Positions 4,679 to 53,373 of a stretch of DNA of 64,000 nucleotides are shown in pieces. The notes below the pieces were generated by a model that saw nothing but the letters and a program-made list of their open reading frames with translations, was not told the origin of the DNA and searched no databases. Both the position numbers and the translations under genes were made by a program. Within the stretch, counting starts at the first letter, position 1, and the number at the start of each line of letters is the position of its first letter. The stretch comes from Squalus acanthias (lineage: Eukaryota). The stretch is taken from positions 33,792,001-33,856,000 of the forward strand of contig CM059432.1 of the NCBI GenBank assembly GCA_030390025.1. The letters are read 5' to 3'.

Positions 4679-7600
4679 ATGGAAAACATCCTTAAACCAT
4701 CGCGTCTTGACTTGGACCCAAACACCCCAGCAGCCGGTAAGGTGTGGAAACACTGGTATCGCACGTTTGACAATTTTCTGGAATATTGTAAGGCTGATGA
4801 TGACTCAAAGTTGCGGATACTCATCAACTGTGTCACCCCGAATGTATTTCAGTATGTGGAGGAATGGGGCAGTTACGAGGAGGCAATTTGGAAGCTTAAG
4901 AGACTATATACTAAGACACCGAATGAGGTCTATGCCAGACATCTACTTGCTACAGCCCAACAAGGGCCGGAGGAATCCATTGATAAATTCCTCCAAGAGC
5001 TTCGCAGACTTAGTATGGACTGTAACTTTCGGGCGGCCTCAGCTGAGCTGTACCGTGAAGAAATGATCCGTGATGCTTTCATCTGCGGGCTTGCCTCCCC
5101 ATTTATACGCCAGCGTCTACTGGAAAGTAAGACACTTGAGCTTCAGAGAGCTTATGACATGGCTTGCTCTCTAGATCTGGCAAAAAGAAATGCAGACCTT
5201 TATACAGTGCCCAGACCTCGGTCTACTGCCTTAACTACAGTCAGGCAATTTAAGAGGCCACAGGTGAACTCTATTAGGGAGGTCTTTATCCCTGACGATC
5301 AATCTGATGACTTCACTGATGAAGAGGATGATGACCCCACTGTGGCAGCCTCTTGGCAATCTAAGAAATGCTTCTTTTGTGGTGATGAGTTCCACCCTCG
5401 GAAATTCTGCCCTGCTCGCAATGCGTTTTGCAGTCATTGCAACAAAAAGGGTCATTTTGCAAAGGTTTGCCTATCAAGAGCCTCTACGAGGGCTTATCAA
5501 GCTAAGTCCTACCGAACTGCCCCGGTAAGGGCCTATCAAGAAGTTCCGGCTAAAATCTATCGTGCTTCCTCTCGAAGAAACACACCTAGAGTTTCAGCCA
5601 CTCTTTGTGCAACGACACCAATTACAGCTGCTTGTCCTCAGAACCTATTCCATGCAGCTACAAAAGCATCAATTAATGGACATACTTTAGATGCCTTAAT
5701 TGACTCAGGTAGCACTGATAGTTTCATTAGGGAACAGATTGTTGCAGAGTTAAAGCTACATGTTTTCCCATCGGACCAGGCAGTTGCGATGGCTCAGTCA
5801 TCACTTAATACCAGAATTTCTGGCTTTTGTATGGTTGAAATAACACTTAATGGTCGCAGGTATCCCTCCACCCGGCTTTCGGTGCTCAAGGACTTATGTA
5901 GTGATCTTATCTTAGGGCTGGATTTTCAAAAGCAGCATAAGAAGCTCACCATTGAGTTCGGCGGATCCAAACCTGAACTCACTATTTCTAATATACTACC
6001 TCGATTACCGTTCTGTGCATTGTCAGCAGCTTCACTGGATGAACCCTCACTGTTTTCCAGTATCCCTCCTCGATGCAAACCGATTATAACAAAGTCACGA
6101 CGTTTCAGTCAGGAAGACCAGTCTTTTATTGCGGCTGAGATTTCTCGGCTTTTAGCAGAGGATATCATCGAGCCTTGTTCGTCGCCATGGCGCGCCCAGG
6201 TCGTTATTGTTAAGAACCCTCTACAACCTCACAAGAAACGGCTGTGCATTGACTATTCACAGACCATCAATCAATATACGGACTTGGACGCATACCCATT
6301 GCCGCGCATCGATGATATGGTTAATAAATTGGCTGAGTACACGGTGTTCTCAACATATGATCTAAAAAGTGCCTATCATCAGGTACCCTTGAAGGTCTCA
6401 GACAAGCAGTATACGGCCTTTGAAGCCAATGGACGGCTGTATCAATTTCGTCGCCTCCCCTTTGGGGTCACTAATGGAGTGGCTGTCTTCCAGCGAGCAA
6501 TGGATGACCTGGTCAAACAGGAAGACTTGAAGGATACGTTTCCTTATCTGGACAATATTACTGTCGCAGGTCGCAATCAGCGGGAACATGACGCCAATCT
6601 CCAACGATTTTGGGATGCACTCCAGCACCGTAATTTGACATTAAATGCGGCTAAATCCATTGAGTCACAACCAACCATCAACATCCTTGGCTATTGTGTG
6701 GGCAATGGCATCATTAAACCTGACCCTGAAAGGCTTCGCCCACTCCAAGAACTCCCGCCACCTAAGAATCCGGCCTCCTTGCGCCGGGCCCTCGGCCTGT
6801 TTGCATACTATGCTAAATGGATTCCTAACTTCTCGGACCGAATCCAACCTCTACTGAAGGCCAGCACATTCCCACTAGACACAGCGGCTGTTGCAGCCTT
6901 TAACCTCCTGAAAAAACAGTTGGAGAAAGCGACTCTTCACTCCATCGATGAGAGTCTTCCTTTTGTCGTTGAGTGTGATGCCTCGGAGGTGGCGATCTCG
7001 GCCACTCTGAATCAGGAAGGTCGTCCGGTGGCATTTTTGTCCAGGACTTTTCAAGGGGCTGAGCTACATTATCCTCCAGTCGATAAAGAAGCTACAGCCA
7101 TCATAGAGGCAGTACGGAAGTGGAGTCACCTCCTAGCTCGCCAGCACTTTACCTTAATCACGGACCAATGATCGGTCGCCTTCATGCTCGATAATCGAAA
7201 ACGGACCAAAATTAAAAATGATAAAATCCAGCTTTGGCGGCTAGAATTGGCCTCTTTTGGTTACACCATCCACTATCGACCTGGCAAGGAGAATGTGGCT
7301 CCAGATACCCTCACACGAGCATTCTGCTCCGCCATGGCACCCTCTACGCTCGTAGACATCCATGATGGGTTGTGTCATCCGGGCGTTACTCGCATGCTAC
7401 ACTTCGTGCGGTCCCGAAATCTCCCATTCTCTACCGGGGATGTAAAGAAGATGTGCTCGGACTGCAGAGTCTGTGCGGAATTGAAACCTCGGTTTTTCCG
7501 CCCCTCGGGTGGTATACTCATACATGCGACCCAGCCAATGCAACGGCTTAGCATCGATTTTAAGGGGCCGTTGCCCTCTTCAACTCGCAACACTTATCTA

Positions 7601-8617
7601 TTGACCATGGTCGATGAGTATTCCCGTTTTCCGTTTGCCTTTCCCTGCCCCAATATGCTGACGACCACGGTTATCAGCTGCCTTGAGCAGGTATTTGCTT
7701 TCTGTGGCATGGCATCCTATGTTCATTCGGATCGGGGCCCTTCTTTTATGTCAGGAGAACTCAAGGCCTATCTCTCGGAACGGGGTATTGCTGCCAGCAA
7801 AACGACGCCTTATCATCCGGTCGGGAATGGGCAAGTCGAGCGTTTTAACGCTATCATCTGGAATGCGGTACGTCTGGCTTTGAGATCTCGGGGCCTACCC
7901 AACCAGCAATGGGAAGCAGTACTTCCAGACGCATTACACTCCACACGGTCCCTCCTTTCGACCGCCACAAATACAACGCCTCATGAACGGTTCTTCCGAT
8001 TTCAGCGTCGCTCATCCTATGTGATATCTCTCCCGTCGTGGCTGACTGCACCGGGACCAGTGCTACTCCGAAGATATGTCTGGGCGTCTAAGAATGACCC
8101 TCTGGTAGATGAGGTTGAGCTCACTGACGTCAACCCTACCTACGCCTATATTCGGTATCCTGACGGTCGGGAATCTACCGTGTCATTGCGGGATCTGGCT
8201 CCCTGCCCGCCGAAACATAGAGGGACACCAGGGGATGATATTGTACCAGGCACATCTCTGGGCTCGCCAGGTGCCTCTCATCACGATCTGGATCTGACGC
8301 CGGCTGGTACCTCACTCCAGCGTGCCGACCTGGGGCAGACTGACTATGAGCCCGTCGGGGCTCGCACGCGCAGCCACGATCCACCCTGTACCGTACGCTC
8401 GGAAACGGATCTGCCACAGCCCTGCCCGACACCCGTTCGGGCACCAGTACACAGTCAGGATCGTCCTGACCCCTCACAGAGCGGGCTGGATCACTCGGAC
8501 TCTGGTCCACGGCCCGCGGCGGGTAAACGGGCTAGGGGCCCTCTACCGCTACAAGAACCCAAACGGGTGCGGCTCTCCCTCGTCCAGCGGCTACGAAATG
8601 GAGGGAGAATGTGGTAA
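4679..8617 (+). pseudogene. Gypsy gag-pol polyprotein (Gag with 2 CCHC knuckles, protease, RT, RNase H, integrase) with one in-frame TGA at 7169-7171
   Basis: CFFCGDEFHPRKFC/CSHCNKKGHFAKVC, LIDSGS, YLDN RT motif, CDAS RNase H, HHCC + IDFKGP/SDRG/VER integrase; ORFs 4679-7171 and 7184-8617 share a frame. Confidence 0.95.
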
Positions 8618-8680
8618 CACAATACAGCTTCCTGTGACTCGAACTTCATCCCGGCCTCCTAATCTTTTGGTGGGGGAGAA

Positions 8681-8874
8681 TGTGGTAACACAATACAGCT
8701 TCCTGTGACTCGAACTTTATTGCATCACTTCCTGTGATTAGTCCAGGATAAATACTGGACTGATCAGTTGGATCCTGGAGAGGCATAGAGTAAGACCTCT
8801 TTTGTATGTAGCACCTTTTTAGTTGATTAAAGCTTACTTTAAGTTCACCACGCGTAAGGCTCATTCTTACGACA
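8681..8874 (+). repeat. Gypsy 3' LTR
   Basis: Matches 4407-4600; preceded by PPT, followed by TSD. Confidence 0.97.
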
Positions 8875-8994
8875 GTTTATATTTGCACTGTTTGAGGGTA
8901 ATTTTATCCTACTCTGTCTGGTGGGAACTGGCGTGATCAGATTGTCCTCTCGTTTTACAGTACATCCGATTGTAATCAATACAAATATGGAGAA

Positions 8995-31541: not shown

Positions 31542-32334
31542 GGGGGAAAAATTCGGTTGGTTTACGACTCCCGTTAGTGCCTTAAGAGGGCGCTAATGGG
31601 ACGCAAAGCAGATCGTGACGTCAGTCGAGCGTGCAATGCCCCGGTAGTGCCCCGGACCGGATATTGAGTGGTGCCCCCTGCCTTACCGCCTGCCGCTAGC
31701 AACGACAGGTTGAGGGGAGCGTTTTGCAGTCGGGAAGGGACTGGGGGAGCGCTATTTAAAGGCGACCGCTTACTGCCTTTTTTTGTCGGCAAAATTTTTG
31801 CACCGCGCATTCTGAGTGAGAGAGAGAGAGACTTCTGGAGATATTCAACGCTGTGTTGAGGAGTTTTGGCTACTGAGCAGCACTTGGCAGGTTCATTTTG
31901 ATTTGATCTTCCTTGTATCGATTTAGAAGAGACTGTGGGGGCTGCACTCTGAGCTCTTTCCCTGGGTCTCTCCATTGTTCTTTCCAGCAGTTTTGATGTA
32001 CAGGTCTCTCCAGGCCGAGATTCGAGGCTGCAATGAGCAGGGTGTGGATGGAGAGCAAGATCTACCCTCCCCTTTAAGAACTGGCTGGCTCCAGTGTGTC
32101 TGTTCCATTGCTGACTGACATCACATGAGCTTCGCCAGCGCTCTGAGGTAGCGCCTCGCTCCTCGGCGTTAGCGCCTTAAGAGAGGTGTGTAGCGCCTGA
32201 TTTAGCGCTCCAATCACCTCCAGGGGCGATAGAAGCCAAGTTTGCAGTCGAAGGCGATAATTAGCGCCAGGCGCTAAACTTTGCGCCTGGCCGATAATTA
32301 TGCCTCAAATGGGGCGATACCAAATTTCTCCCCC
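31542..32334. mobile_element. Non-autonomous internal-deletion derivative related to the Harbinger at 38393-42680
   Basis: TIR GGGGGAAAAATT / AATTTCTCCCCC, TSD ATT; both subterminal regions align with the two ends of 38393-42680. Confidence 0.88.
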
Positions 32335-36952: not shown

Positions 36953-38044
36953 TGTAAGGGGTGACCTGCGGCTCTGTGCTTAGCCTGGGTGCTAGTGCGA
37001 GGTTAGGCCTTGTTGCCTGTTCTGGTCTCCAGCCAGCCTGGTAACACTAGACACCTGTGAGTGGTTCGACCCACTCGCCCTTACGGTTCTGTCACTGGAC
37101 TTAGGTGCGAGAGCAATAATGCAGAGAAAAACTCAGGTAGACCCGGTCGAATAGTGCGAAATGGAAAATCTTTATTGCATATTATTCAAGATTACGAGAT
37201 ACATGTCATAAGCACAGATTAATGACAGTACAATCTTACACACAGTTATGTAACTAATTTTAGGGAAACGAGGAGCGCATGACACATCGTAAAAAGGGAC
37301 ACACATTATACTTATCCTTAAAACTTAAACCCTCCCCTATCAATACCTGTCCTAATCTAGATTTGTAGGATCGAGACTCATGCTCACCACTCGTGATAAC
37401 TCGGAGAATTCCGAAACTCTGCTCGGATGTTTTTACCGCAGCACCTGACTATCCACGTGCTGATCAGGGGTCTCTGTACCCCACTTGTTTACTCGTTTCT
37501 GCTCCGGCTAGCAGGCTGGACCGTCTGCTGTCATGAAGATCTGTGTTGTCCTCGGAGTTCCGATACTACTCGAAAAAGAGTCTTCCTGTGCCCTCACCAG
37601 TTTGTAAAATTCAAAGAAAGGTCTTCCTGGGCAAGGAAGTGTTTATTCGACTTACAGGCGCGGTCGGGGCTTACTGACCGTGGCGATGCGTATTGTCGTC
37701 TTCTTCTCTTCTCATCTCATCTCATCTCCTCGGTACAATAGCCCTTATTCTCACCTGGGAGACCGATTCCAGTATTTATGTATAAAATGCAAACCCATCA
37801 TGTCTTGTGAATTATCTCAAATGTGCTGAGTCCTGTACGATCTTGCACAAATGTTTATTGGAACGCCATCTTGTCTGCCCATTGAAAGTCTAGAACCTTC
37901 TGCCACGAGGCGTGGCGGCCATTTTACAGGCTGTTTGTGTCCGCTTTGAAACCTGACAGCATTCTGCTGAAATAAAGCTGTTTGTACGAAACTTTATGTC
38001 TCCTTCTTATTTTATAAAATCGCGATAATTTTGCGAATTCTACA
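36953..38044 (-). repeat. ERV 3' LTR (1092 bp; lacks 559 bp present in the 5' LTR)
   Basis: Colinear with 51723-53373 except for 52502-53060; about 4 substitutions counted by eye. Confidence 0.95.
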
Positions 38045-38055
38045 GTCCCTCCTGT
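38045..38055 (-). promoter_or_regulatory. ERV polypurine tract
   Basis: Minus strand ACAGGAGGGAC immediately precedes TGTAG of the 3' LTR. Confidence 0.75.
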
Positions 38056-38904
38056 TGATGCGAATAACTCCGCTTATCGTATCAAAAATATTGTGGTGAG
38101 CAATATTATCTCGATTCTCCACATCCAAAAATTCCCATAACTTAAAACTATCTAGGGTCTCCGTGTCGTCCTTATTTCCCAGGAAAACTACATTCTTATA
38201 ACACCATAGGAAGCATTTGCCTTTAACTTACACCGCGTGTATTTCCTTCCAGGTGTAACCAGGCCGATGCCTCTCGCACCACCTGCATATGCATATTTTT
38301 TTATTCAAAGAAAAAAGAAAACAAAAACCAACCAAACAATCATATTCAACAACACCAAATCAAATTAATCAAAACCAACTCTTAAACATGTAGGGGTAAA
38401 AATTCAGTTGGTTGCGCCTCCCGTTAGCGCCTTAAATGGGCGCTAATGGGGCGTTAAGGCGCTAACGCCCGGGCGCAGCGCTGTTTGCGCCGCTCGAGAA
38501 CTTAACTTGAGATTGTGCGGCGGCGCTAAAACTTACCGCTGCGACCACCTGCGCGCGCAGATTGTGACGTCAGTCCGTGGTGCAACGCCCTTGGGGCGCC
38601 CCGGAGCGGAAATTGAGTGGCGCCCCCTGCCTTACCGCCTGGCGCTTCCAACGACCGGAAGACTGGAACGTTATCAATCGGTCTGGGGCTGGGGGGGGCG
38701 CTATTTAAAGGGGGCCTCTTCCTGTCTTTTTCTGTGGTCGACATTTATGCACCACTCGTTCTGAGAGAGAGAGAGAGATTCGGAGAGAGAGAGAGAGAGA
38801 CTTCTACATTGACTCAACGCTTTGTGAGGTAGTTTTGCCTAGTTCATCCTAACTTTGCTGCTACTTTCGTTGCTGTACCTCATTACTTTTCTGGCAAAGA
38901 GAAG

Positions 38905-40065
38905 ATGGGGGCTGCAATGATTGGGGGCGTCGTCCTGCTCCAGCTCAATCGGAGCAGAGTGAGACGCAGACAGAGAGTGGCAATGATGGCCAGACGGAGG
39001 AGGCCCATCAGGCGCATGTACAGGAGAGCTTACCCTCCCAGGGTATATCGTGAACAGCTCTCCTACATCCACATGTCCGAGGAGCTGTGTTTGCGAAGGC
39101 TGCGATTCAGCAAGGAGGTGGTCACTGAGCTCTGCCACCTGCTGCAGCCAGATCTGCAGCCTCAGCTGAGGTCCAGGACGTCTCTGTCGGTGGCAGTGAA
39201 GGTCACAGTGGCCTTGAACTTCTACGCCACTGGCTCATTCCAAGCTGCTGTTGGGGACCTCGCCAATATCTCCCAGTTTGCGGTGCATCGCTGCATCCGG
39301 CAGGTCACCAATGCCCTCTTCACAAGGAGACGAGACTTCATCTCCTTCCCTATGACCCCAGACAAGCAGCATGACCGTGCTATGGGCTTTGCGAGGGTAG
39401 CGGGCTTCCCCATGGTGCAGGGCGCCATTGACTGCACGCATGTGGCTTTGCGTGCTCCGCGAGAGAATGCAGAGGAGTTCCGGAACAGAAAGGGGTTCCA
39501 TTCCTTGAATGTGCAGTTGGTCTGTGACCACAGACAGGTGATTCTCGCTGTCAATGCCCACTATCCGGGCAGCTGCCACGATGCTTTCATCCTGCGCCAG
39601 AGTACTGTGGCAGAAATTTTCGAGGCACCGCATCAGCCAGTTGGTTGGCTTCTGGGGGACAAGGGGTACGCATTGAGCACCTGGCTGATGACACCGCTCC
39701 GTACGCCAAACACCCCTGCTGAGCTGCGGTACCAGGAAAGCCAACAAGCAACGAGGAACATTATTGAGCGCACAATCGGCGTGCTCAAACAACGATTCCG
39801 CTGTCTGGACCATTCCGGAGGAGCCCTGCAGTACTCGCCTGAGCAAGTTTCCAAATTCGTAGTGGTGTGCTGCATGTTGCACAACATGGCAATCCTCAGG
39901 ACGCAGCCAATGCCACCAGGCCTTGCAGCACCACAAGAGGAGGAGGAGGAAGAGGAGGAACAGGCCGAGGACGATGATCAGCAGCAGCACCAAGGCAGGA
40001 GGGCGGCCCACAATGGTCAAACTGCAAGGGCCGTCCGTCAACGACTAATAGCAAGCCGCTTCTAG
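38905..40065 (+). CDS. Harbinger DDE transposase (HARBI1-like), intact 386 aa
   Basis: [55 protein letters not shown] motifs; no stops. Confidence 0.96.
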   Translation: MGAAMIGGVVLLQLNRSRVRRRQRVAMMARRRRPIRRMYRRAYPPRVYREQLSYIHMSEELCLRRLRFSKEVVTELCHLLQPDLQPQLRSRTSLSVAVKVTVALNFYATGSFQAAVGDLANISQFAVHRCIRQVTNALFTRRRDFISFPMTPDKQHDRAMGFARVAGFPMVQGAIDCTHVALRAPRENAEEFRNRKGFHSLNVQLVCDHRQVILAVNAHYPGSCHDAFILRQSTVAEIFEAPHQPVGWLLGDKGYALSTWLMTPLRTPNTPAELRYQESQQATRNIIERTIGVLKQRFRCLDHSGGALQYSPEQVSKFVVVCCMLHNMAILRTQPMPPGLAAPQEEEEEEEEQAEDDDQQQHQGRRAAHNGQTARAVRQRLIASRF

Positions 40066-40359
40066 GGCCCCTGCCAGTGCTACAAACACGAATCAACCCA
40101 GCACGCAACCCCTAAGCCGGCCAAGGCACCAATAATTCCAACCACCAGCCATGTATATTTTGAATACAGAAACTTATTTATTGTACAAACTCTGTGTGTG
40201 TCAATTCCTCATGACAAACTCATAGAAATAAACACAAAAAAACAGTCAATAACATAACTGGTTCTCACAACCTGGAGATAATGTCCAAAACACTAAACAA
40301 AAGTTGGGCCATGAACCTCGGCCTTTAATAAAAAAATGACCAGCATTTTGGCACACCTC

Positions 40360-42323
40360 CTACTTTTTGCCCTTCGAGGGTGATCTCCTTCCCTTGCGCA
40401 CTTCCCCCCTTCTAACCCTACTGCTCCTCCGTAATGGGACCTCAGTGGCTGCAGCAAGGCTGGTGGAAGGCTGCTGCTTGTCACACCCTGACACTGCAGA
40501 TGCCCCTGAAGGACGGCCTCGACCACTTCTGGGCCTGGAGGGCCCGGCTGCAGACTGCACCAACTCTGCATGGGCGGCAGCAGTCTGTCCTACAGGCGGT
40601 GGCAAGTGCAGTGGAGAAGTGACAGTGTTGGCAGCAGGAATGCTGTCATCGTGAGAGAGGACAGCAACTCCCTGCTCGCCCGACACACTGGCACTCCCAC
40701 GGGGCAGCACTTCAGCATCCGGAGCAATTTGCCTGAGAACAGATTGCTGGCCTGCTGCGGCGCGGTGACAGCCCCGGGGACATGTGCACGAACCATCGAG
40801 GATGGCAGCAGTCAGTGCTCGCGTGGCCTCAATCTGAGTCTGCATGAGAGCAGGCTCAGATGGGTTCCTGGCAGCCAGTGACTGAATTGCAGCAGTAAGC
40901 TTTAGTGTGGCATCCGCCTGTGCTACAGCGAAGTGCTCCACACTCCTTGCCAGTGCCTCAATGCATTCGGGCACCCTTCCCACTGCACCCATGAGCTCAG
41001 TGTGCATGACCACCGCCTGGCTGTTCATTTCTGCAATCAGCCGCTCCTCCTCTGCGTCCATTGCATTAGGAGTGTCTGGCATACTCTCCCTCTGGGGAGA
41101 AGGCTCCCGTTCTTCCCTCCCCCCCCCATGGCGTTGCTGCAGCCCGCTGGGTCCTGGAACTTCACCATCATCAGCCCCTTCCCCCCTGCTCCCCCGTTCT
41201 TCCCTCCCCCCCCCATGGCGTTGCTGCAGCCCGCTGGGTCCTGGAACTTCACCATCATCAGCCCCTTCCCCCCTGCTCCCCTCCGGGGAAGGCGTGTTCC
41301 CAGTGTGGCCATGGGCTTCCTCGGGAGAGGGTGGCACTGATGCTCCGGCTTCCTCTTCCTCCTCAGCTGCAGCATCACTCCCAGTGGCAGCTTCAGGGAC
41401 CATCTCCTCAGCTGGTGAATCACCATCTGAAAGCAGGGAGGTACAAGAGTGGCTTTAGCGTGAGGACAGGGTGGCAGTAAGGGAGGAATAAGTGCAGCGA
41501 GTTAGCAAGTTGGATTGAAAGTGTCAAAGGCTGGTATTGTGAGGGACAAGTGGAAGGACAGAGGACAAAAAGGTGATGACCTTACCATTGCTGTCCACAA
41601 CGGGGTCGGCGTCTCCAGTGGCGACGGGACCGATCACCCGGCTTGCCACAATCCTGTGGACGCGCTCCTCCAGATCGCTGAGGGGTTGCAGCTGAAGCCG
41701 CCCTCCACCCGTCCGTTGCTGCTGTCTCCGATTATGAGCCAGCTTAGCCTGCAAGAAAAAGGACAGCATCTGAGTCAATATACAGCCATGGTCTTGCCTG
41801 ATGTGCCTCCCATAGGTGAATAGCCCTTACAATATGCAGCCATGGTCTTGCCTGATGTGCCTCCCATAGGTGAATAGCCCTTACTGTATGCAGCCATGGT
41901 CTTGCCTGATGTGCCTCCTATAGGTGAATAGCCCTTACTGTATGCAAAGTGTGGAATGTGTGTGTGTGTTTGATGAAAGGGCCATAGGTGTTGGATGAGT
42001 GTTGTGCATTGGGGTTTTAAGACCCTCTGGCCATAGAGTGAGGTTGAGATGGAGGGATGGAGAGGTATTGAGAAAAAGCCACTCACCCTGACGACCCGAG
42101 TGAGGTCGTTGAACTTTTTGCGGCACTGGACATGGGTCCTGGGCACCATGCTCCTGGAGGAGACGCTCTGAGCCACCTCCCTCCACACTCTTCTGAACTC
42201 GCGTGGCAAAGGCCTCCTGCCACTCTCTGGGAACAGCATGCATCGTCTGCGCTCCACTGCGTCAACCAGAGCATCCAAGGCCCGCTCGGTGAAGCGATGA
42301 GCGCGTTCTCTCACCCTCTCCAT
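40360..42323 (-). CDS. Harbinger Myb/SANT-like DNA-binding protein, 3 exons (42323-42087, 41748-41586, 41426-40360), ~488 aa
   Basis: RFTERALDALV..WREVA..RTHVQCRKKFNDL trihelix motif; GT-AG introns with matching phases (0 and 1) give an uninterrupted frame. Confidence 0.88.
41104..41281. repeat. Tandem 87-bp in-frame duplication in Myb-like exon 3
   Basis: GSRGEGADDGEVPGPSGLQQRHGGGREER occurs twice. Confidence 0.9.
41778..41946. repeat. ~54-bp x3 tandem repeat in Myb-like intron 1
   Basis: cagccatggtcttgcctgatgtgcctcccataggtgaatagcccttac repeated three times. Confidence 0.92.
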
Positions 42324-42781
42324 GCTTGGCAGCAAAATGGATTACAGGTCTCTCCAGGCTGAGATTCAAGGCTGCAATGAGCAGGGTGTGGCTGGGGAGC
42401 AAGTGGCCCCCCCCGCTTTAAGAAGTGTCCGGCGCCAGTGTGTCTGTGTTCCCTCGCTAACTGGCAGCAGCTGCGCTGCGCTCGTGCGCTGAGTTAGCGC
42501 CTCACTCCTAGGCCTTTGCGCCTTAAGAGAGGTGTGCAGCGCCTAATTTAGCGCTCCACTCACCTCCCGGGGCGGTAAAAGTGAAGTTTCCTGTCAGTGC
42601 CGATAATTAGCGCCAGGCGCTAATATTTGCGCGCGGACGATATTTGCGCCCCAAATGGGGCGCGACCTAATTTCTACCCCGTAGAGTTCCAAACTTAATT
42701 ACAGTTTCTGAGAAAAATCACGATCGATTACAACACTTCCGAGACGCACGTGGAAAACTGGAGTGACGCCATTTTGTCTGT

Positions 42782-45292
42782 TTACGCGGTGCTTTCATTG
42801 TGCACGCGCACGTAACGTTCTCGCCACTCTCCCGTGTTTTCGTTCTTGGTGAGGCGTTTGCCTCTCTTACAATGCACGACCAATAAGTATATCACAATAA
42901 ACACTTGGCATACAACTAAAATGTGGGAGGCTATTCTAATCCAGGAAGGCACTTCAATGTTGGTGAACAGATTCCACCACGGTGGAATTACTATGTCCAG
43001 AATTTCTGTCCCTATCTCGACAGTCTTTTGTTCTAGGGTGTAAAAATGTTTTTGCGATACCGCGACGGCTTTCAAAAGCTTGGTGAGGTGTTCAGGGAGA
43101 GGGGGAATGAGGTATCCGAAATGCGCGACGAATCGCTGCAGGTCGGTGAAGTTCTCTTTTACTGTGAGATGAACCGTGGATGGTTCAGGGATCGGGACAA
43201 TTCGCTGTTGTGCTACTTGAACTTCCGCCCTGGGTTTGAAACAGAAACTGCTGTCACTCACCGGACACCGGCTACGGTTTCCATGTTGGTAGTGTTGCGC
43301 TGCAGTGGTAACACAATATGTTCCACCCCCGATGTATGCTACCTGCGGAGGCACATGATCTTGTGCCATTGCCTCCATGGTGCAATTCATGGGCTTGGCG
43401 CCAGCCGTTCTGAACCCGCACTGTGGTGTTAAAAAGGCATTCAAGTGCTGGGGACACAGTATTATGTGTGCTCCCCGGCCACGACAACCAGAGAGATCTG
43501 TACCTGTCATCGTTTGCTCCCAGCGGATGACGTAAGGTGGAACCGCTGCATAGCGAATGTGGGCTCCCCCATGAATGACACCAATGTTCTCTACCCGGTA
43601 CACCGGGGCGGGCTTTGCTGTGTCGCCCAAAACCGGCATACGTAATACTATACCCATGATGGTATGGTTTGATCGTCCGCAGTCCACGGGGACTGGGTAT
43701 GCTTCTGAAGCTAGTCTGAGCTGGCACGGGTTTAATGCGTTCTGAAAAGGGTGGAGCGCCTGCAGGTGTTTGTTACTTATCCAGGACGGGACCAAACCTT
43801 GTTTTAAATCCTCCAAATTACTGCGGCCCTCGCCCAGTAACCACGCCCCGTAAAGCACGCACACCTCATTCTGCGCAGCCTGATCGGACGCATTCCGATC
43901 TTCCCTAATCAGGGCATTTACCGTACGCGCATGTTTCTCTAGTTCAGCTATTATTTCTTTTAAATGGAGAGTCATGGCCTGGTCCTCGTGTAACCCAGAC
44001 CCAACCACCTTATTTTCATCTGTGAGGATGTTCTTCAATTGTGTTTTTAAGCCATTAATCTGGGTCTGCAGCTCCACGCTGTCTAGAGCGTTGACCACAG
44101 ATGTACCTGTATTGAAAGCAGTGAACATGTCGTTCACAACACCCCTTCTTTGCCTCCCCACCTGATCCAAAACTTCATGTGGTGCGGTGTACAAACTTGT
44201 TTTATCAATTTCCGCGAAATCGAACTCATAAAATTGTCTAAACATCTTGGTCAACAGGACCTGATATAACTGTTCCGTCTTTTTGGGGCACCACTCTGGT
44301 AACCGCACCTCGGTGAGATTTAAAATCACCGAGGCCACCGCGTAATGTACCCCCTGAAATAGTATCTGGTCTGTGGGGACCAGTACCAAACCATTCCCGG
44401 GTCCCTTACTGGTTTTAGGGCACCCTTCTTCCTTGGCTAGAACCACCGGAATCGTGGGCGGGGCTTTGCGTGGGCGCGTAATGAGTTCAGTGGCATTTAC
44501 CGGGATCAGAGAGTATGGGGCTCCGCACCCACTGGTGCTCGCATCCCACCTCATCCCCTGTCCGTTATCCTGCCATTGATTGATGAAAAATATGGAGATG
44601 CCTTTGGGGCAAACGTGCTTTGACCCCCACATACATACATAAATTCCCTCATCCGGTTCCCACCATTTGTCCCAACAGACTTTCAATTGTCCGTTAGTCC
44701 CCATAATTGTCCGATGGGTATTGTTACCCAACCGCTCCCACTCGACCGAGGAGTTTCTCATATTCTTGCTTAACTTTCGTAGCCACCACCATCGGCTCAA
44801 TAGGACATTCCCATTACAAGTCAAACAAATCCGTTTGCCGACGGTGACGCTGACTCTGGGTGCGATGATCCTCACTTTGGGGCACATTAAAGAAGTCTCT
44901 TTGTAGGCAAAACCCGATGTACTGGAATACTCAGTTGAATTCGTTCCCAGCCATCCTGGCCACTTTCCCTTGTGGAAATAGGTGGTGGTCTCCTCAGCCT
45001 CTCGCCTTCCGGTCCCATCCACCGCGATGGGGGCCGTGTCCCCGGAGCATCCAAACACCACGACATCCTTGGTGCGGCCTCGATAGGCCAATCCACATCC
45101 GATTGCCGCGAGCAATACTAGAATTCGTTCCATCCTTCCTTGGTTCCTGTGATCAGATAGAATGAGGTAGCCAGCCTCCCAAGAGTCTCTGGCTTTTGTG
45201 AAGGGTGAGCGGGTCCCCTGACCTCGCCTCTCGTAAGAAGACATGTGCGCTGGATAGACTTTAACTATTCCTATCTCTAAAACTCCCATCAT
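42782..45292 (-). CDS. env: Envelope glycoprotein (class I fusogen, F-like); probable true start Met at 45133
   Basis: Signal peptide MERILVLLAAIGCGLA, furin site RQRR then GVVNDMFTAFNTG fusion-peptide-like stretch, heptad repeat, Cys-rich region, TM ILVVCQVFIVIYLLVV, short tail; ORF fully open. Confidence 0.92.
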   Translation of the reverse strand: MMGVLEIGIVKVYPAHMSSYERRGQGTRSPFTKARDSWEAGYLILSDHRNQGRMERILVLLAAIGCGLAYRGRTKDVVVFGCSGDTAPIAVDGTGRREAEETTTYFHKGKWPGWLGTNSTEYSSTSGFAYKETSLMCPKVRIIAPRVSVTVGKRICLTCNGNVLLSRWWWLRKLSKNMRNSSVEWERLGNNTHRTIMGTNGQLKVCWDKWWEPDEGIYVCMWGSKHVCPKGISIFFINQWQDNGQGMRWDASTSGCGAPYSLIPVNATELITRPRKAPPTIPVVLAKEEGCPKTSKGPGNGLVLVPTDQILFQGVHYAVASVILNLTEVRLPEWCPKKTEQLYQVLLTKMFRQFYEFDFAEIDKTSLYTAPHEVLDQVGRQRRGVVNDMFTAFNTGTSVVNALDSVELQTQINGLKTQLKNILTDENKVVGSGLHEDQAMTLHLKEIIAELEKHARTVNALIREDRNASDQAAQNEVCVLYGAWLLGEGRSNLEDLKQGLVPSWISNKHLQALHPFQNALNPCQLRLASEAYPVPVDCGRSNHTIMGIVLRMPVLGDTAKPAPVYRVENIGVIHGGAHIRYAAVPPYVIRWEQTMTGTDLSGCRGRGAHIILCPQHLNAFLTPQCGFRTAGAKPMNCTMEAMAQDHVPPQVAYIGGGTYCVTTAAQHYQHGNRSRCPVSDSSFCFKPRAEVQVAQQRIVPIPEPSTVHLTVKENFTDLQRFVAHFGYLIPPLPEHLTKLLKAVAVSQKHFYTLEQKTVEIGTEILDIVIPPWWNLFTNIEVPSWIRIASHILVVCQVFIVIYLLVVHCKRGKRLTKNENTGEWRERYVRVHNESTA

Positions 45293-45424
45293 TTTACCTC
45301 TTTCTGTTAAAAACCTTAAACTACAAACTTAACCTGATTTAAGAACTATAAACTTGAACTTACAAAACTTATCAACTTATCACTTATCTTATAACTGTAC
45401 AGTGCCGCCCGTTCCCAGGGCGGC

Positions 45425-48400
45425 CTACTCAAATTCTGCGGTTGCCGCCGCAGGCTTCTCCCAATGGGGGGGGGGGGCACTGACCCCTCCCTTTGATCTG
45501 CCGCAGCCTGTCGCTGCTGCGCTGGGGCTGGGATCTCCCTGAGCTGCCTTGACCTTGAACTTACGTCTGGGGACATATGGGGGACTTACCCAAATCTTTC
45601 TGGGCTGGGGTTTCCGACTTGACCTACGGAGAACTACCGGGGGCAGGAACTCCAGGACTGACGGACCGGGTTTTGAGACTTCCAGCGTGGTGACCCGTGG
45701 TCCCACCACAGTCGCTGGCTCCGCCTCCCCTGACTCCGCCTCCCTGAACTCGGGATCTGCAGCTTGTGGCACCGCCCTACTTGGCCCAGTAGGCGGCCCT
45801 TCACTCGCAGTCCCTACCTCCCTCGAGGGCAAGACGTTCAAGGCGGGCGGCTCGGGCTCTGAGGCTTCCATCGCCACGCCCTGTGGTCCCACCACAGCGG
45901 CTGGCTCCGCCTCCCCTAGCTCCGCCCCCCTGCGTTCGGGACCTGCAGCTTCGGCCTCCACCCTTTGTGGATCTCTATCTGTCTCCCCTATACCTGAATC
46001 GGGGGCGACCCTTTCGTCCTCCGATTCCAGCTCCTCCTCGCTTGTGTGACTATCTTCGTTGAGCTCCTCGAGCTCTTCCTCATCTGACTCCCAACCCAAA
46101 TAAAGGATCCTACATTTTTCTAGGATGTCCTCTCCCCTAACGCAAGCTGCTTTGCCTGCCTGTGTGCCCTGTGGCCCTACCTGGGGCTGCGAATCCCCAC
46201 TCGCAGGTTTGGCCCCTGTGGTAGGCCCTTGTGCACCCGGCTTATACAGTTTGCACTGATTTACGTGGAACCACTTAGTGCGCCGAGGTACCTTTACGGC
46301 GTATACCATGGGACTCGCCTTATCTACAATGCTGTAGGGTCCCATATACAGTGGTTCCAGACTCCCTACTCTGGCGTAGTTTCTGACCATGACCTGGTCT
46401 CCTACTTCCCACTCCCGCTTTTTGCGGGGTTCCAGCAACAGGCGATTGCCCTGATGCTGCCTTCCCATGTTCCCAGCCGCCTGCTCATAAACCTGCTTCA
46501 GGTGCTCCAAGAGGGTCTGGACGAACTTGTCCCTGCTTACCTCTTGGAGCTGACCCTCAGTGAGCACCGGCGCTAGCACATGGGTGGGGGTTCGCATGAT
46601 CCTCCCAGTCATCACCTCGTGCGGGGAATACCCCGTACTTTTCGACTGACTGGCCCGGACCCCCATGAGGACTAAAGGCAGAACCTCCGCCCATTTTTGG
46701 GGCGAGTTCATAGTCTCTTTCCTCAATTTCTCCTTCAGGGTCCGGTTCATGCGTTCAACAATCCCGGATGACTGGGGATTGTGCGCTACGTGCCATTTCC
46801 CTTCAATGCCCAAAAGCATGAGGGTGTTCTGCATCACCTGGCCGGTGAAATGACTCCCTTGGTCTGACTCCACAAAACGGGGAAGTCCCCACCGCGAGAA
46901 CACTTCCTGGACCAAGATTTTTGCAGTACCCAGTGCCGTAGCTGTTCTACAGGGGAAGGCTTCCACCCATTTGGAAAACACATCCACCAAGACGAGGCAG
47001 TATTTATAGCCTCCCTGGGTGGTGGGCAGGGGCCCTATATAGTCGATCTGTATTGACTGCCATGGTCCCTCTACCCTCCTGATGTGCCCCATGGGCACTT
47101 TCCTTTTCTGGGGGTCTGGGTTGTTTGCAGCGCACACGAGACAGCTTGCACAGAACTCGCGGACCTGCTCCCTGAACCCCGGCCACCATCCCGCTTGCTC
47201 TACCCGTTGCCAGGTAACCTCGGGCCCGGGGTGCCCTGCCCCAGGTCCCTCATGAGCCAACTGGAGGAATTCCCTCCTGTGCTGCTGCGGCACAACCCAC
47301 TGCTCCTCGCGGAACAGCATGCCTTCCTTAACGGAGAGGGTTGCCGTACTGTACGGACCCTCTACCTGCTTCCCCTCAGCAATGGTTCTGAGAACTGCTT
47401 TTAGGGCGGGATCCTGATTCTGGACGGTCTTAAGGTCTAGGGGCAATGCTACCCTGGTGTTCCCGGAATTCCCGTCCCTGCCTTGGATCGCTGCCACGGG
47501 TCTGGGCCCATAGGGGTCCCAGAAAGTGCCGTTACGGGCACCCTCCCTGGCTAGCGCATCCGCCTGCTGGTTGCCTTCCCCACGGGGCTCTGTGGTGGAG
47601 TGAGCCTTCACCTTATGGATGAAAATCTCCCCTTCCTCCCTTACTGCTGCTAGGATCTTTTCCAGCAAGGGCTTCACCGTTAAAGGTCGTCCGTCCGCGG
47701 AGGTGTATCCACGGCGGGACCAAATGGCCAGGTATTCCGTACACGAATTGCATGTGAACATACTGTCCGAGCAAATCGTGTATGGTGTTGGGAAAGTTTC
47801 TGGGTGGGTAACGACGTACACCACTGCAGACAGCTCCGCCTGCTGCGCGCTCATGGTGCTGGGGAGCTTAATCGCCAGGGCAAGGTTTGCCGCAGGGTCA
47901 TAAACTCCGCACCCTGTGAGTCGTTCGCCAGCGGACACTGTGCTGGAACCATCAACATAAATCTCGCGCCCAGTGGGATGTATCCCGGCCCGCAAACCTA
48001 TGTTGACTTCCCACACCCCTTCCACCGAACACTGGTGGGCTGTACCGGGGTATACCAAATTGGCCGCAAGCCTGGGCTCGCAAAGACCTTTAATTCTAAG
48101 ATCCATCTGGGAAAGGAGAAGGGTCCAGCGCGCAATTCACACGCTGCTTACGGTCCCATCCTTAATCCTCCCATCTAGAAGCATCTTAGTTGGTGTGTGA
48201 TGGGTGAGGAGAGTGATGGGAGAGAGCCCTGTGAAGATTGCTGATCTTTTCACAGACCAATGCGTGGCTAAAAGGTGCCTTTCGCAATTGGAGAAACTTC
48301 TCTCCACATCCGTTAACACCCTGGACGAATAGACAACCGGCCTCAGCTTGCCGTAACGCTCTTGGAGCAGCACAGCGCTCAAGCTGTCCCCGCTGGCAGC

Positions 48401-49912
48401 TACCTCCAGGAAAAACTCCTTCCCCCCATCTATGGCCCCTAAAGCTGGCGCGGTCTGCAAATCCCTTTTTAACTTCTCGAAGGCTGCCTGGCAGCCCTCG
48501 TCCCAAGACCACTCCACTCCCTTATGGAGGAGTCGGAGCAGCGGCGCCGCTGTGGCCGCATAGTCTTCGATAAAATCCCTGCAGTAACCGGTCAGTCCCA
48601 AAAAGGACCTCACACCCCTTATGGTGTTGGGAATCGGTAACTCTTGCACCGACTCCCTCCTAGCCTTATCTATGGCTCTTTCCCCAGCGCGAATGGTCAG
48701 CCCCAGGAATTTTACTTCCTGCTGACCGATACGTGCTTTCTTAGGGTTCACTTTAAAACCCTTTCTCGCTAGCAGCTCCAATAACTCGGCCAGCAGTGGT
48801 CCATGCTCCTCCCTTGAGTCCGTAAATAGGAGCAAATCATCCACGTACTGCACTATCTGATTGGGCTGACTAAACTCCTTTAAACTTCCTGCCATACACT
48901 GATGGAAAATACTGGGGCTGTTGTGGAAACCCTGTGGCAGACAGTTCCATGTGTACTGTTGTCCTTTGAAAGTAAAGGCAAACTTGTACTGGTCCTCTCG
49001 CCGCAGCGGGATGGACCAAAAACCGTTCGAGATATCCAGCACCGTGAACGTGGTCGCGGACGCTGGGATACTCCCTATTAGGTCAGCAACTGCTGCTACC
49101 GTGGGCGCGCAGGCGGGAATGTTACTGTTAAGGACTCTGTAGTCCACCGTGGCCCTCCACAAATTATCCGGCTTCCTAACCGGCCATAATGGGGAGTTCA
49201 CGTGTGTGGCTATCGGCCTCAACACGCCCTGCTGCACCAAGGAGGACATTGCTGTCTCCATATCGGGTTCTGCTTCTTTGGGGAAGTTATACTGCTTTTG
49301 GGGCCGGGTCATGGGGTCCCCATCTACGCTGACCTCAAACCCGGTAACCCTCCCACAATCGTGCTTGTGGGTTGCAAACGCGTGCATATTATCTGACACG
49401 TACGTTTGCATGTCCGTTGGGACATCCGCGACCATAAGCCCGAGGTCGTAGCCTCTGGATGGCTTCATGGTACACAGGGCCCCTTTACCTTCCTCCTCCG
49501 GGATTACCACTACCTCGCCTTTTCCACCCTTAGCTCCCCAGAGACAGTGATTCCTGAGGTCCACGAGGATCCCGTGCCCCGATAGGAGGTCTGATCCGAG
49601 GATGCCTCTCCCACCCCCCTCTTGCCATTTCATCAGTATGCACTTCCACGTGGTGTGGAGTGCTCCTAAATGAATGGATAGCGGAATGGAGAACGCGCCA
49701 GCCTGCTCTTTTCCCGTGAACCCCGCTAATGTGTATGGGACCTTGGTAGATAGCGGTGAGTCAAAAGGGCTATCCGTATGAATCACGGTGCATGAAGCTC
49801 CCGTGTCCAACAAATAACTACCCTTCTGTTTCGCTACCTCCATCTCCACCAGGGGTCGCTTCCACGCATCATAGCTGAGCGGACACAAGTAGACGGGCTG
49901 TGCGGGCTCTAG
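45425..49912 (-). pseudogene. pol: Pro-Pol: protease, RT, degenerate RNase H (tether), RNase H, integrase with long tail; one in-frame TGA at 48137-48139
   Basis: LLDTGAS, LPQGFHNSP, YVDDLL, FFLEVAAS (tether), YVDGSS/AQQAEL/SDS/GNQQAD, HHCC + IDYIGP/SDQG/IVERMN; ORFs 48137-49888 and 45425-48106 share a frame. Confidence 0.94.
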
Positions 49913-51718
49913 TCATTGGGTACTATTGGACGGGGCTGCGGCATCTGCGGGGCCGGTAGCAACTGCCACCCTTCCATGCGAAATCATGAGGGTGCGCATG
50001 GCTCCCAACATTGATTCGATCGTATCTGGATGGATAGGTGCACTAGCTCCCCTATCGGAGACAGGCGCCTGGGCTCGGACTGCGGGATTTTTATCCCTGG
50101 ACTCCTTCCAAGGGTTCCTGCAGTTCTTGCGCCAATGCCCTGTCTTCCCACACCCGTAACAAGCATTACTGGCCTGCGGGGCGCGATTTCCCTCCTGATG
50201 CTACTCCTTTTGAGCCGGGGCTGTGGGCCGCGCCTCATGCACCTTTCCCTTAAGGGGACGTGCTCCCGTACTCCTGGTATTACGGTACCCTACCGTGAGT
50301 CGATTTAGGACCGACTCCTCTGTAGTGGCGGGGTTAGTGGGATCAAACCACGCTTTGGCCTGCTCCCTGACGGCTGGCAAACTGTTGGCTACTATACACC
50401 TGAGCCAATGAGTTAAACCGACGCCGTCCAAATAGGCACGCGCTGGTGCGCCTGGGCAGCTACGCTGGTATACTGGCCACAGCCTGTCGGCGAAAACCTT
50501 CGGGGGTTCTCCCTCCATCTGCACTGTTTGTCCCAATCTAACGAACGGACCTTCATCGTCCGCTCCCAACACTTCCAGGACCTCGTCCCTCAATTCCCCA
50601 TAGGTATTATTTCCCCTCTTGCTCTCGTCTGAGAGACACTGAAGGATCGAGCTGTCTAATGAGAACAACAGCATTTTTGCTTTTTCCCCATCGTCGCAGC
50701 CGTTAATGGCTGCGGTTTGCTCTACCTCCCTGAAATGTACGGAAGGGTCGTCTGACTCGGCCAGCTTCCGTACGTGACTGATCATAACCCTCAGCTGGTG
50801 TGAGCTGTGAGGCAACACAAGCTGGTTGAGGAGATCCCCCTGTGCCCCACCGTCTCTGTTCGGGCCCCTCTTGATACCCGTGACCGGACACAACGGTCCC
50901 GGCTTCACTTCTACCTCAGTGGGCTCTTCCTCTACTTCTACCACTTCCTTCCTCACCCAGGTTGCCGAATAGCTGGGTGGCGCGGAGGGCACAGTGGCAA
51001 ATACCTCCTCTGCTTTGTTCGGTGGGGATTTCTGAAATTCCTCACCCACCAGCGGCTGGTGTGCTGACGGGCTGATAAGGCACACCATGCCGTGCGCTTT
51101 ATTCAGGGCCTTTTTAAGGTTCCCTATCTCTCTTTGGCAGACGCTGTGATCGGCCCCCTGATGTTTATCCTCGAGGGCCATCTTATATGCCGCCCTAACC
51201 CCCGTTAAGCTCTCTTCCTGGGCTTTTATTTGGGCAGCTAGGCGGGCACATCGTTTCTTTATTCTGCCCTCATTTAACTTTGCCTCAGTGACCTGGCACT
51301 CGAGGTAATCTATTTTCGCCTCATGGTGGTTGGCGACTAATTGGCGTTCTTGATGCAACGCATTTAAAGACGCGATGAGCTGCTGCCCCCCCGCGACCTT
51401 CTCGTCCATTTCCACCTCTAAACCCTTGATCTGAGCTGCCTGCGCTAAGATGACCTGGTCCGAAATTTGGACTTGTCTTTTATAGCACATCAGCCAGACC
51501 GCTTTCTCTACTGTTCTTTTATGTTCCTTGCTATCTGTCCACCTCACGGCTGCCTCTAGTGGACGCTTATCCACCAGCAGGTCACTTATCCATTTCTTAG
51601 TCAAATTCACTTTTCCAAACACATAATCTGCTATTCTCTCTTCCATGACATTTCGCCCATTCATACCAGGGTCTAACACATCATTTTCTCGCTGCCAGTG
51701 TCCCTTCGTGGTCGCCAT
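49913..51718 (-). pseudogene. gag: Gag (coiled coil, late domains, capsid, CCHC knuckle); premature TAG at 50201-50203, natural TGA at 49913-49915
   Basis: 505-aa ORF continues in frame past the TAG into CYGCGKTGHWRKNC; PSAPPSY and PTAP motifs. Confidence 0.9.
51700..51717 (-). promoter_or_regulatory. Primer binding site complementary to tRNA-Arg 3' end
   Basis: TGGCGACCACGAAGGGAC, 5 nt inside the 5' LTR boundary; matches the vertebrate tRNA-Arg(TCG) 3' end GTCCCTTCGTGGTCG-CCA as I recall it. Confidence 0.8.
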
Positions 51719-51722
51719 TATC

Positions 51723-53373
51723 TGTAAGGGGTGACCTGCGGCTCTGTGCTTAGCCTGGGTGCTAGTGCGAGGTTAGGCCTTGTTGCCTGTTCTGGTCTCC
51801 AGCCAGCCTGGTAACACTAGACACCTGTGAGTGGTTCGACCCACTCGCCCTTACGGTTCTGACACTGGACTTAGGTGCGAGAGCAATAATGCAGAGAAAA
51901 ACTCAGGTAGACCCGGTCGAATAGTGCGAAATGGAAAATCTTTATTGCATATTATTCAAGATTACGAGATACATGTCATAAGCACAGATTAATGACAGTA
52001 CAATCTTACACACAGTTATGTAACTAATTTTAGGGAAACGAGGAGCGCATGACACATCGTAAAAAGGGACACACATTATACTTATCCTTAAAACTTAAAC
52101 CCTCCCCTATCAATACCTGTCCTAATCTAGATTTGTAGGATCGAGACTCATGCTCACCACTCGTGATAACTCGGAGAATTCCGAAACTCTGCTCGGATGT
52201 TTTTACCGCAGCACCTGACTATCCACGTGCTGATCAGGGGTCTCTGTACCCCACTTGTTTACTCGTTTCTGCTCCGACTAGCAGGCTGGACCGTCTGCTG
52301 TCATGAAGATCTGTGTTGTCCTCGGAGTTCCGATACTACTCGAAAAAGAGTCTTCCTGTGCCCTCACCAGTTTGTAAAATTCAAAGAAAGGTCTTCCTGG
52401 GCAAGGAAGTGTTTATTCGACTTACAGGCACGGTCGGGGCTTACTGACCGTGGCGATGCGTATTGTCGTCTTCTTCTCTTCTCATCTCATCTCATCTCCT
52501 CTCGGGGCTTCGGTTCCAACACCGTTTACCGACTTTTCGGGATGGTGCGCCCGTTTCAAGGCCTCACAGCCCAGTTCTACACAGATCTTCGCGGCAAGCC
52601 ACAAGGTTGATCCTAGCGGATCAGAGTCCAGAGCCGTCAGGCAAGAGAATAAAAGTTCAACAGTCTTCCAGCGAGTCAAAACAGCAAGTGCAAGAAGAAG
52701 CAGAGACAGCAGTCAGCAGCAAGAGTAGCAAGCGAAGAGAGAGAGATGGACGGTTGTACCTTACAGTTATAGTGCTGTAATTCCTCTTTTCCCGCCCAAT
52801 CTTAATGTCTATCTTTTGTCAGGATTTTGGTGCTCAAACTTCTTGTATAGGGTGATCTCCGTTTTTAATGAGTTTCGGTGATACTTGTAACTGTCTGAGT
52901 ACCCGTTAATACTTCTCCCATTGTGGAACCGGCTAGTAGTCTCCCTGGTGGGGTTTGGGGGCTTCCAAATGCTTGCTGTGAGTACCCATGAATGGCTCTC
53001 TCATCGTAGAGCCGTGGGGATTTTGCATATTAATGTCTTTGGATGGGTCCTTGATCGCTCGGTACAATAGCCCTTATTCTCACCTGGGAGACCGATTCCA
53101 GTATTTATGTATAAAATGCAAACCCATCATGTCTTGTGAATTATCTCAAATGTGCTGAGTCCTGTACGATCTTGCACAAATGTTTATTGGAACGCCATCT
53201 TGTCTCCCCATTGAAAGTCTAGAACCTTCTGCCACGAGGCGTGGCGGCCATTTTACAGGCTGTTTGTGTCCGCTTTGAAACCTGACAGCATTCTGCTGAA
53301 ATAAAGCTGTTTGTACGAAACTTTATGTCTCCTTCTTATTTTATAAAATCGCGATAATTTTGCGAATTCTACA
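51723..53373 (-). repeat. ERV 5' LTR (1651 bp)
   Basis: TG..CA ends; candidate CCAAT/GC box at 52791-52800, TATAA at ~52768-52772, AATAAA at ~52412 and ~51941 (minus). Confidence 0.95.

What the first reader, a model, noticed from the sequence alone, without database searches (positions are those of the whole stretch)
38393..42680. Intact autonomous Harbinger riding inside the retroviral genome
Seen: a complete element (TIRs, TSD GTA, open transposase, open spliced Myb-like gene) sits between the env stop and the PPT without damaging any viral ORF or the PBS/PPT. Inference: a full-length viral transcript would carry it, a possible route for horizontal transfer of a DNA transposon by an enveloped virus. 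The Myb-like gene is sense to the viral RNA, so retro-copied progeny should lose its introns, unless its own poly(A) signal truncates the viral RNA. The simplest explanation remains a post-integration insertion.
Basis: partly seen in the sequence, partly recalled or inferred. Interest (0 to 1): 0.7.

Follow-up and report, generated by a model that had tools for sequence, protein, structure and literature searches.

The report
Transposon landing hotspot inside retroviral copies
An intact cut-and-paste (Harbinger) transposon sits in the tail of a broken endogenous retrovirus, and related transposons sit at the same three bases in dozens of other copies of that virus, most likely because each jumped separately into a spot that matches their preferred landing sequence, not because the virus carried them along.

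Summary
The element is real: 4,288 bp, 12-bp TIRs, GTA duplication, open transposase and a two-intron Myb-like gene, between the env stop and the PPT. The host provirus, however, is broken. It has private stops in gag and pol and a 559-bp deletion in its 3' LTR.

The insertion is not a one-off. Exact patterns find 28 left and 38 right filled junctions against 215 empty sites, about 12-15% occupancy, by full-length elements and MITEs in both orientations.

These look like independent insertions after integration:
- Filled copies are scattered over the viral tree.
- Insert and virus distances are uncorrelated.
- 0 of 22 full-length inserts lost an intron, and neither spliced junction occurs genome-wide.
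- The only congruent sets are segmental duplications.

The site is the provirus's best match to the family's palindromic target motif. Extended target preference is known for Harbingers, and this scan had already noted such hotspots in other repeats of this genome. Viral carriage is not supported.

The parts
38393..42680 (+). Autonomous PIF/Harbinger transposon, 4,288 bp, 12-bp TIRs (1 mismatch)
   Evidence: at least 35 full-length copies at 99-100% identity
38390..38392 (+). Target triplet GTA, left copy
   Evidence: single GTA in 24 of 30 proviral copies
42681..42683 (+). Target triplet GTA, right copy (TSD)
38905..40065 (+). Harbinger transposase, 386 aa, open
   Evidence: Pfam PF13359 E 8e-38; open for 386 aa in 27 of 28 free copies
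42087..42323 (-). Myb-like gene exon 1 (Myb/SANT domain)
   Evidence: PF13873 E 7e-9; gene model; intron 1 predicted only
41586..41748 (-). Myb-like gene exon 2
   Evidence: joint 41426-41586 in 4 of 4 runs
40360..41426 (-). Myb-like gene exon 3 to stop
40177..40182 (-). AATAAA downstream of the Myb-like gene, sense to the viral RNA; predicted poly(A) signal
   Evidence: function inferred
36953..38044 (-). 3' LTR, 1,092 bp, with a 559-bp deletion at about 37729-37731
38045..38056 (-). Polypurine-tract-like stretch
42782..45328 (-). env ORF, 848 codons stop to stop, open
   Evidence: relatives only in a skate and a sawshark
45425..49912 (-). pol (PR, RT, tether, RNase H, IN), interrupted by an in-frame stop at 48137-48139
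49913..51772 (-). gag, interrupted by an in-frame stop at 50201-50203 before the zinc knuckle; ends at a TGA (49913-15) shared by 10 of 10 copies
51700..51717 (-). Primer-binding-site-like motif (tRNA-Arg match recalled, not tested)
51723..53373 (-). 5' LTR, 1,651 bp; provirus flanked by a GTAA duplication (36949-52, 53374-77)
37995..37997 (+). Second, weaker Harbinger target in the LTR (TAT; also 53324-26), empty in this provirus
   Evidence: score 7.8; 7 filled against 554 empty genome-wide

Best explanation
A young autonomous Harbinger most likely jumped by ordinary cut-and-paste into an already integrated, now defective provirus, at a 3'-untranslated spot that is a recurrent landing site for this transposon family. 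Shown: the site is filled in about 12-15% of proviral copies, by several element types in both orientations, and it is the provirus's best match to the family's palindromic target motif (roughly TAAAC(T/A)C-NWN-G(A/T)GTTTA). Inferred: the transposase and Myb-like protein read that motif, and proviruses lie in regions about tenfold more receptive to Harbingers than average, which together give the occupancy seen. Predicted: in this orientation the Myb-like gene's poly(A) signal would cut the viral RNA short, and the 3' LTR deletion would leave any progeny without a promoter.
For: Recurrence: 6 of 30 closest proviral copies are filled; 28 and 38 filled junctions against 215 empty. Independence: among 113 viral flanks, filled copies are scattered. 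A same-class nearest neighbour occurs 3 times against 3.6 expected in 96 rows, P 0.65. Insert against virus distance: rho -0.17 (55 pairs), 0.01 (55 pairs) and 0.004 (168 MITE pairs). The window's Harbinger differs at 6 of 4,288 sites from a free copy and from an opposite-orientation copy in a provirus 2.7% away, while its four nearest viruses (1.1-1.2%) are empty. Introns: 0 of 22 proviral full-length inserts are spliced, including 11 with the Myb-like gene sense; 0 genome-wide matches to either exon junction. Motif: the site scores 11.0; 0 of 12,062 other proviral positions and 27 of 139,963 host positions score as high. The LTR site scores 7.8 and is filled 7 of 561; the ninefold occupancy ratio matches the score gap. 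Regional effect: young Harbinger DNA is 0.3% of 200 kb of random DNA but 5.1% of 78 kb beside other copies. An extended 15-bp target preference in vertebrate Harbingers is in print (PMC2836001, PMC3016246, passages).
Against: The motif alone implies only 0.3-1% occupancy, so a 10-20-fold regional factor is needed, and it is inferred from noisy backgrounds. The motif comes from 109 half-sites and is scored in-sample, so the ninefold match may be partly luck. Dating at this locus is not decisive: LTR-LTR 4 of 1,092 (CI 0.10-0.94%) against Harbinger 6 of 4,288 (CI 0.05-0.30%). In 4 of 11 dated proviruses the insert's nearest sampled relative is farther than the LTRs are from each other. L077 stays so after a dedicated search (44 of 4,204 against 3 of 1,042). 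Orientation differs by class (full-length 4 forward, 12 reverse; short 19 forward, 6 reverse; Fisher P 0.003, post hoc), which the model does not explain.
Confidence: 0.88

Rival explanations
1. The virus carries the transposon: an insert in the 3' untranslated region is transcribed, packaged, reverse-transcribed and re-integrated with the virus, in at least some copies, and could reach new hosts.
For: The site breaks no viral ORF or cis-signal, env is open, and at least 45 places are filled. Short inserts of about 0.9 kb add little length. L077's insert looks older than its LTR pair. Unspliced genomic RNA can keep introns (general knowledge), so intron retention is not absolute proof against carriage.
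Against: There is no clade of filled copies and no insert-virus congruence apart from segmental duplicates. No intronless copy was found. The 7 LTR-site insertions are on 7 different contigs, none paired in one provirus. This provirus has stops in gag and pol and a deleted 3' LTR, and is 16.4 kb with the insert against 12.1 kb without. Each orientation puts an AATAAA sense to the virus; introns and internal poly(A) signals are listed as constraints on gammaretroviral vectors (PMC3185771, passages). The best transposase relatives are 65-66% identical and from cartilaginous fishes, with no near-identical hit in a distant taxon among the best 120 of 248.
Confidence: 0.05
2. Filled sites spread between proviral copies by gene conversion or segmental duplication from a few founding insertions.
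For: L077/L078 share the host junction. L081/L082/L089 are 99.3-99.5% identical over 8.3-9 kb and share a non-viral break with L091. A few proviruses have mismatched TSDs, which suggests recombination.
Against: This accounts for only 4 of 45 places. The rest differ in element type, subfamily and orientation, and inserts are often closer to free copies than to each other.
Confidence: 0.04
3. The transposon actively targets this retrovirus, for example through tethering to a protein or chromatin mark at the 3' LTR, beyond sequence preference and general regional openness.
For: Occupancy is about 48,000-fold above the genome mean per base and 10-40-fold above the motif-implied rate. Both recurrent sites lie within about 400 bp of the 3' LTR boundary.
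Against: Of the 30 closest full-length copies only 2 are at this site, and 3 are at one site of an unrelated repeat. The site takes about 45 of at least 8,851 insertions. The two viral sites scale with motif score. Young Harbingers are also dense beside one another.
Confidence: 0.03

Closest known systems
Harbinger3_DR / vertebrate PIF-Harbinger elements (PMC3016246, PMC2836001, PMC9179366; passages seen)
   Same: Two genes (DDE transposase plus Myb/SANT protein), TIRs, 3-bp TSD, an extended palindromic target of about 15 bp, and short non-autonomous derivatives.
   Different: The motif here has an NWN core with GAGT-like arms, not AAACACCWGGTCTTT. It is a very young family in a probable cartilaginous fish (at least 8,851 exact ends), with a site filled in 12-15% of copies of a retrovirus.
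Harbinger and other DNA transposons inserting into the AcMNPV baculovirus (PMC4735498; passages seen)
   Same: A Harbinger transposes into viral DNA at its preferred motif.
   Different: A baculovirus packages DNA, so an insert travels as it is. A retrovirus must pass the insert through RNA, and no such passage was detected here.
Gamma/epsilon-like (class I) endogenous retroviruses of fishes; lokiretroviruses also considered (PMC7947760, first quarter of text read)
   Same: LTR-gag-pol-env-LTR, tether plus RNase H, a 4-bp TSD, and gag and pol in one frame separated by a conserved stop. RT is closest to gammaretroviral structures (MLV identity recalled).
   Different: 1.65-kb LTRs; an env with no Pfam or PDB match and only two cartilaginous-fish relatives; a TGA-CTAG junction. 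The genus was not resolved and no RT tree was built.

Membership tests
PIF/Harbinger superfamily | DDE_Tnp_4 (HARBI1-type) transposase | tested here: met
   PF13359 E 8e-38; 248 relatives at E <= 1e-50, nearly all listed ones named HARBI1
PIF/Harbinger superfamily | Separate Myb/SANT-like gene | tested here: met
   PF13873 E 7e-9; 488-aa model; intron 2 joint in 4 of 4 runs
PIF/Harbinger superfamily | TIRs and 3-bp TSD | tested here: met
   TSD in 29 of 30 full-length copies
PIF/Harbinger superfamily | Extended palindromic target preference | tested here: met
   109 half-sites; +4 is T in 98 of 109 and TSD position 2 is A or T in 107 of 109
PIF/Harbinger superfamily | Two-protein excision activity | not testable with these tools
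   Recent activity is inferred from copies differing at 6 of 4,288 sites
Retrovirus-borne (co-replicated) cargo | Same insert haplotype in a clade of proviruses at different integration sites | tested here: not met
   congruent sets are segmental duplicates
Retrovirus-borne (co-replicated) cargo | Loss of sense-oriented introns | tested here: not met
   0 of 11 sense-oriented inserts; 0 genome-wide
Retrovirus-borne (co-replicated) cargo | U3 insert copied to both LTRs | tested here: not met
   7 places on 7 contigs, exact pattern only
Retrovirus-borne (co-replicated) cargo | Full-length viral RNA containing the insert | tested here: inconclusive
   Only contigs of multicopy sequence were available
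Retroviridae (host provirus) | LTRs, PBS, PPT, gag, PR-RT-tether-RH-IN, env | tested here: met
Lokiretrovirus | Env similar to Mononegavirales F (PF00523) and RT sister to other retroviruses | tested here: inconclusive
   No Pfam hit for env at E 0.001; no RT tree built

The most novel reading that the evidence does not exclude
The viral 3' untranslated site acts as a harmless docking spot from which a Harbinger, most plausibly the 0.9-kb MITE, has occasionally been carried through a round of retroviral replication, giving a DNA transposon an enveloped route between cells or hosts. L077 and the forward bias of short inserts would be its traces.
Probability: 0.06. Interest if true: 0.7.

Novelty: new member of a known kind. 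Interest (0 to 1): 0.25.

Why it matters
It is a clean natural test. Dozens of proviruses hold a transposon at a spot that breaks nothing in the virus, yet none shows signs of having been copied with it. Shared nested insertions at one nucleotide are therefore not evidence of common descent or of hitchhiking, which is a caution for dating and phylogeny by nested insertions. The family is also young and apparently active, with a measurable target code. Had carriage been real, it would be a new route for horizontal transfer of DNA transposons.

Tried and rejected
One-off insertion: rejected.

Intronless copies: none found.

Special targeting of Harbingers by the retrovirus: 6 of 79 proviral 3' flanks lie inside young Harbingers, and 4 were confirmed on both sides. 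That exceeds the 0.3% random share but not the 5.1% share beside other Harbingers or the 6.4% share at any identity, so it is read as shared regions.

Horizontal transfer: no near-identical transposase in a distant taxon. Six coded organisms hold 45% or more of the words in some run, but their relationship is unknown, so this was not used.

Expression of a full-length viral RNA: no RNA holder is on record, and contigs cannot show it.

Env had no useful PDB match. No tRNA gene lies in the window. One search was translated in the wrong frame and is superseded.

Literature searches (listings only) showed no report of a DNA transposon carried in a retroviral genome; the library is partial. No supplements were opened. 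PMC10699275 (passages) did not help to name the virus. Look-ups of this scan by place and by sequence were empty.
Full report
Observation. The window holds a provirus on the minus strand, 36953-53373, flanked by a GTAA duplication, with a 1,651-bp 5' LTR and a 1,092-bp 3' LTR that differ at 4 sites. A Harbinger of 4,288 bp lies at 38393-42680 with GTA on both sides and a 12-bp TIR, about 100 nt beyond the env stop and 335 nt before the PPT. Its transposase (38905-40065, 386 aa) and its Myb-like gene (488 aa, two predicted introns) are open. Intron 2 is skipped in contigs of 4 of 4 runs guessed to be RNA, from 2 studies; intron 1 is not among the listed joints.

The host virus is defective. gag has an in-frame stop at 50201-03 ahead of its zinc knuckle, and pol has one at 48137-39 between the tether and RNase H. 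Of 20 other copies fetched, 10 and 11 cover these codons and none has the stop, whereas the gag-pol stop is shared by 10 of 10. The 3' LTR lacks 559 bp that include the TATAA of the 5' LTR. By inference any progeny would be promoterless, as in self-inactivating vectors (PMC3185771, passages). An AATAAA lies sense to the virus at 40177-82, downstream of the Myb-like gene, and others lie on the opposite strand at 40227 and 40327. Either orientation is therefore predicted to truncate the viral RNA. The provirus is 16.4 kb with the insert and 12.1 kb without. Relatives of env and of the transposase come from cartilaginous fishes, so the host is probably one.

The site is a hotspot. A search with the viral flank alone gave 1,787 candidates, of which 40 were scored and 30 fetched. 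Six of the 30 are filled at the same triplet: the window, three 893-bp MITEs and two full-length elements in the opposite orientation. Exact patterns give 28 left junctions, 38 right junctions and 215 empty sites, that is 11.5-15% occupancy. The union is 45 places, or 41 after removing four duplicates. A junction search added older copies; it can only find forward inserts, so that clade's full occupancy in the tree is an ascertainment effect. Of 57 distinct filled loci, 52 have both ends readable; 34 have GTA/GTA and 10 older ones ATA/ATA. The family has at least 8,851 exact right ends in 3.7 Gb, so the site is about 48,000-fold enriched per base. PIF/Harbinger excision is usually precise (PMC2836001, passages), so some empty sites may once have been filled.

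The insertions are independent. I built a tree of 113 viral flanks (59 empty, 54 filled), leaving out five re-fetched loci, loci with under 900 nt of env side, and L123. Filled copies of every class are scattered over it. In 96 rows (7 duplicates and 10 older-clade rows removed), a filled copy's nearest neighbour has the same class 3 times against 3.6 expected, P 0.65. Insert and virus distances do not correlate (pairs are not independent). The window's element differs at 6 of 4,288 sites from a free copy (L042) and from a reverse copy in a provirus 2.7% away (L074), while its four nearest viruses are empty. The only congruent sets, L077/L078 and L081/L082/L089/L091, share non-viral sequence and are segmental duplicates. 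None of 22 full-length inserts in proviruses (11 with the Myb-like gene sense) and none of 28 free copies has a spliced junction. Both junction patterns give 0 matches genome-wide with one mismatch allowed. A second site in U3 is filled 7 times, on 7 contigs, never in both LTRs of one provirus.

Dating is mixed. Of 13 proviruses with full-length inserts, 11 had a second LTR found. In 6 the LTRs differ more than the insert does from its nearest sampled relative, in 1 about equally, and in 4 less. The free sample was chosen by likeness to the window's haplotype, so those distances are upper bounds. For L077 a dedicated search left the nearest free copies at 44 of 4,204 sites against 3 of 1,042 for the LTRs. 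Four of the 10 free copies examined are as isolated, and none of the 10 is in this provirus family. L077 is unresolved but is not positive evidence for carriage. At the window the intervals overlap.

Why this site. From 109 half-sites the target is palindromic, about TAAAC(T/A)C-NWN-G(A/T)GTTTA. The viral site scores 11.0. None of 12,062 other proviral positions reaches that, and 27 of 139,963 host positions do. The LTR site scores 7.8 and is filled 7 of 561 times; the occupancy ratio of 9.2 equals two to the power of the score gap, an agreement that may be partly luck. The motif alone implies 0.3-1% occupancy at scores of 10-12, so both viral sites run about tenfold or more above it. A regional effect of that size is visible: young Harbinger DNA is 572 of 200,000 random bases but 3,996 of 78,300 bases beside other copies, and 6 of 79 proviruses integrated inside young Harbingers. 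Recurrence and motif match are shown; recognition by the element's proteins and the regional factor are inferred. The class-dependent orientation bias is unexplained.

Comparison and novelty. The element meets every testable defining feature of PIF/Harbinger. Extended target preference is established: 15 bp in vertebrates, and a palindromic consensus for Harbinger3_DR (PMC2836001, PMC3016246, passages). Harbingers insert into baculovirus DNA (PMC4735498, passages), but that route needs no RNA step. PMC9179366 (passages) found no Harbinger in elephant shark and asked for other cartilaginous fishes to be examined. Unreviewed notes of this scan already describe Harbinger hotspots in a LINE and in a Penelope element of this genome. 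Searches listed no report of retroviral carriage of a DNA transposon, and my data do not supply one. The best transposase relatives are 65-66% identical, with no near-identical hit in a distant taxon among the 120 listed.

Verdict. This is a real, intact, young Harbinger in a defective provirus, and one of dozens of independent hits to a preferred target. It is a new member of a known kind; interest 0.25. Carriage by the virus remains possible at about 6%, mainly for the short MITE.

Noticed in passing
window 36953-38044 against 51723-53373: The 3' LTR has a 559-bp deletion at a CTC microhomology that removes the TATAA region; the 5' LTR is whole.
   Followed up: partly
window 49907-49915 (-): The gag-pol junction is TGA followed by CTAG, with the stop conserved in 10 of 10 covering copies. 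This resembles a known readthrough context (recalled).
   Followed up: partly
window 42782-45328 (-): The env has no Pfam or PDB match and only two database relatives, from a skate and a sawshark. Its fold class was not determined.
   Followed up: partly
41 filled proviral sites: Orientation depends on element class: full-length 4 forward and 12 reverse, short 19 forward and 6 reverse (Fisher P 0.003, post hoc). Unexplained.
   Followed up: partly
L093, L096, L102, L103, L134, L146: Reverse nesting: proviruses integrated inside Harbinger copies, 6 of 79 flanks. The Harbinger continues on both sides in L096, L103, L134 and L146.
   Followed up: partly
   Followed up: no
L045, L059, L069; L171, L196, L270; L181, L200, L272: Other recurrent Harbinger landing sites in host repeats.
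   Followed up: no
window 31542-32334: An older 793-bp Harbinger MITE, about 80% identical to the element's ends, with an ATT duplication.
   Followed up: partly
window 4406-8879: An LTR retrotransposon with gypsy-type domain order (direct repeats near 4406 and 8680; PR-RT-RH and IN ORFs).
   Followed up: no
L086, L087, L088: Deletions of viral sequence that start at a Harbinger end. L088 joins the LTR site to the 3' untranslated site.
   Followed up: no
window 41106-41281 and 41779-41946: Tandem repeats inside the Harbinger (about 87 bp in exon 3, 54 bp in intron 1) vary in number between copies and explain lengths from 4.06 to 4.54 kb.
   Followed up: partly
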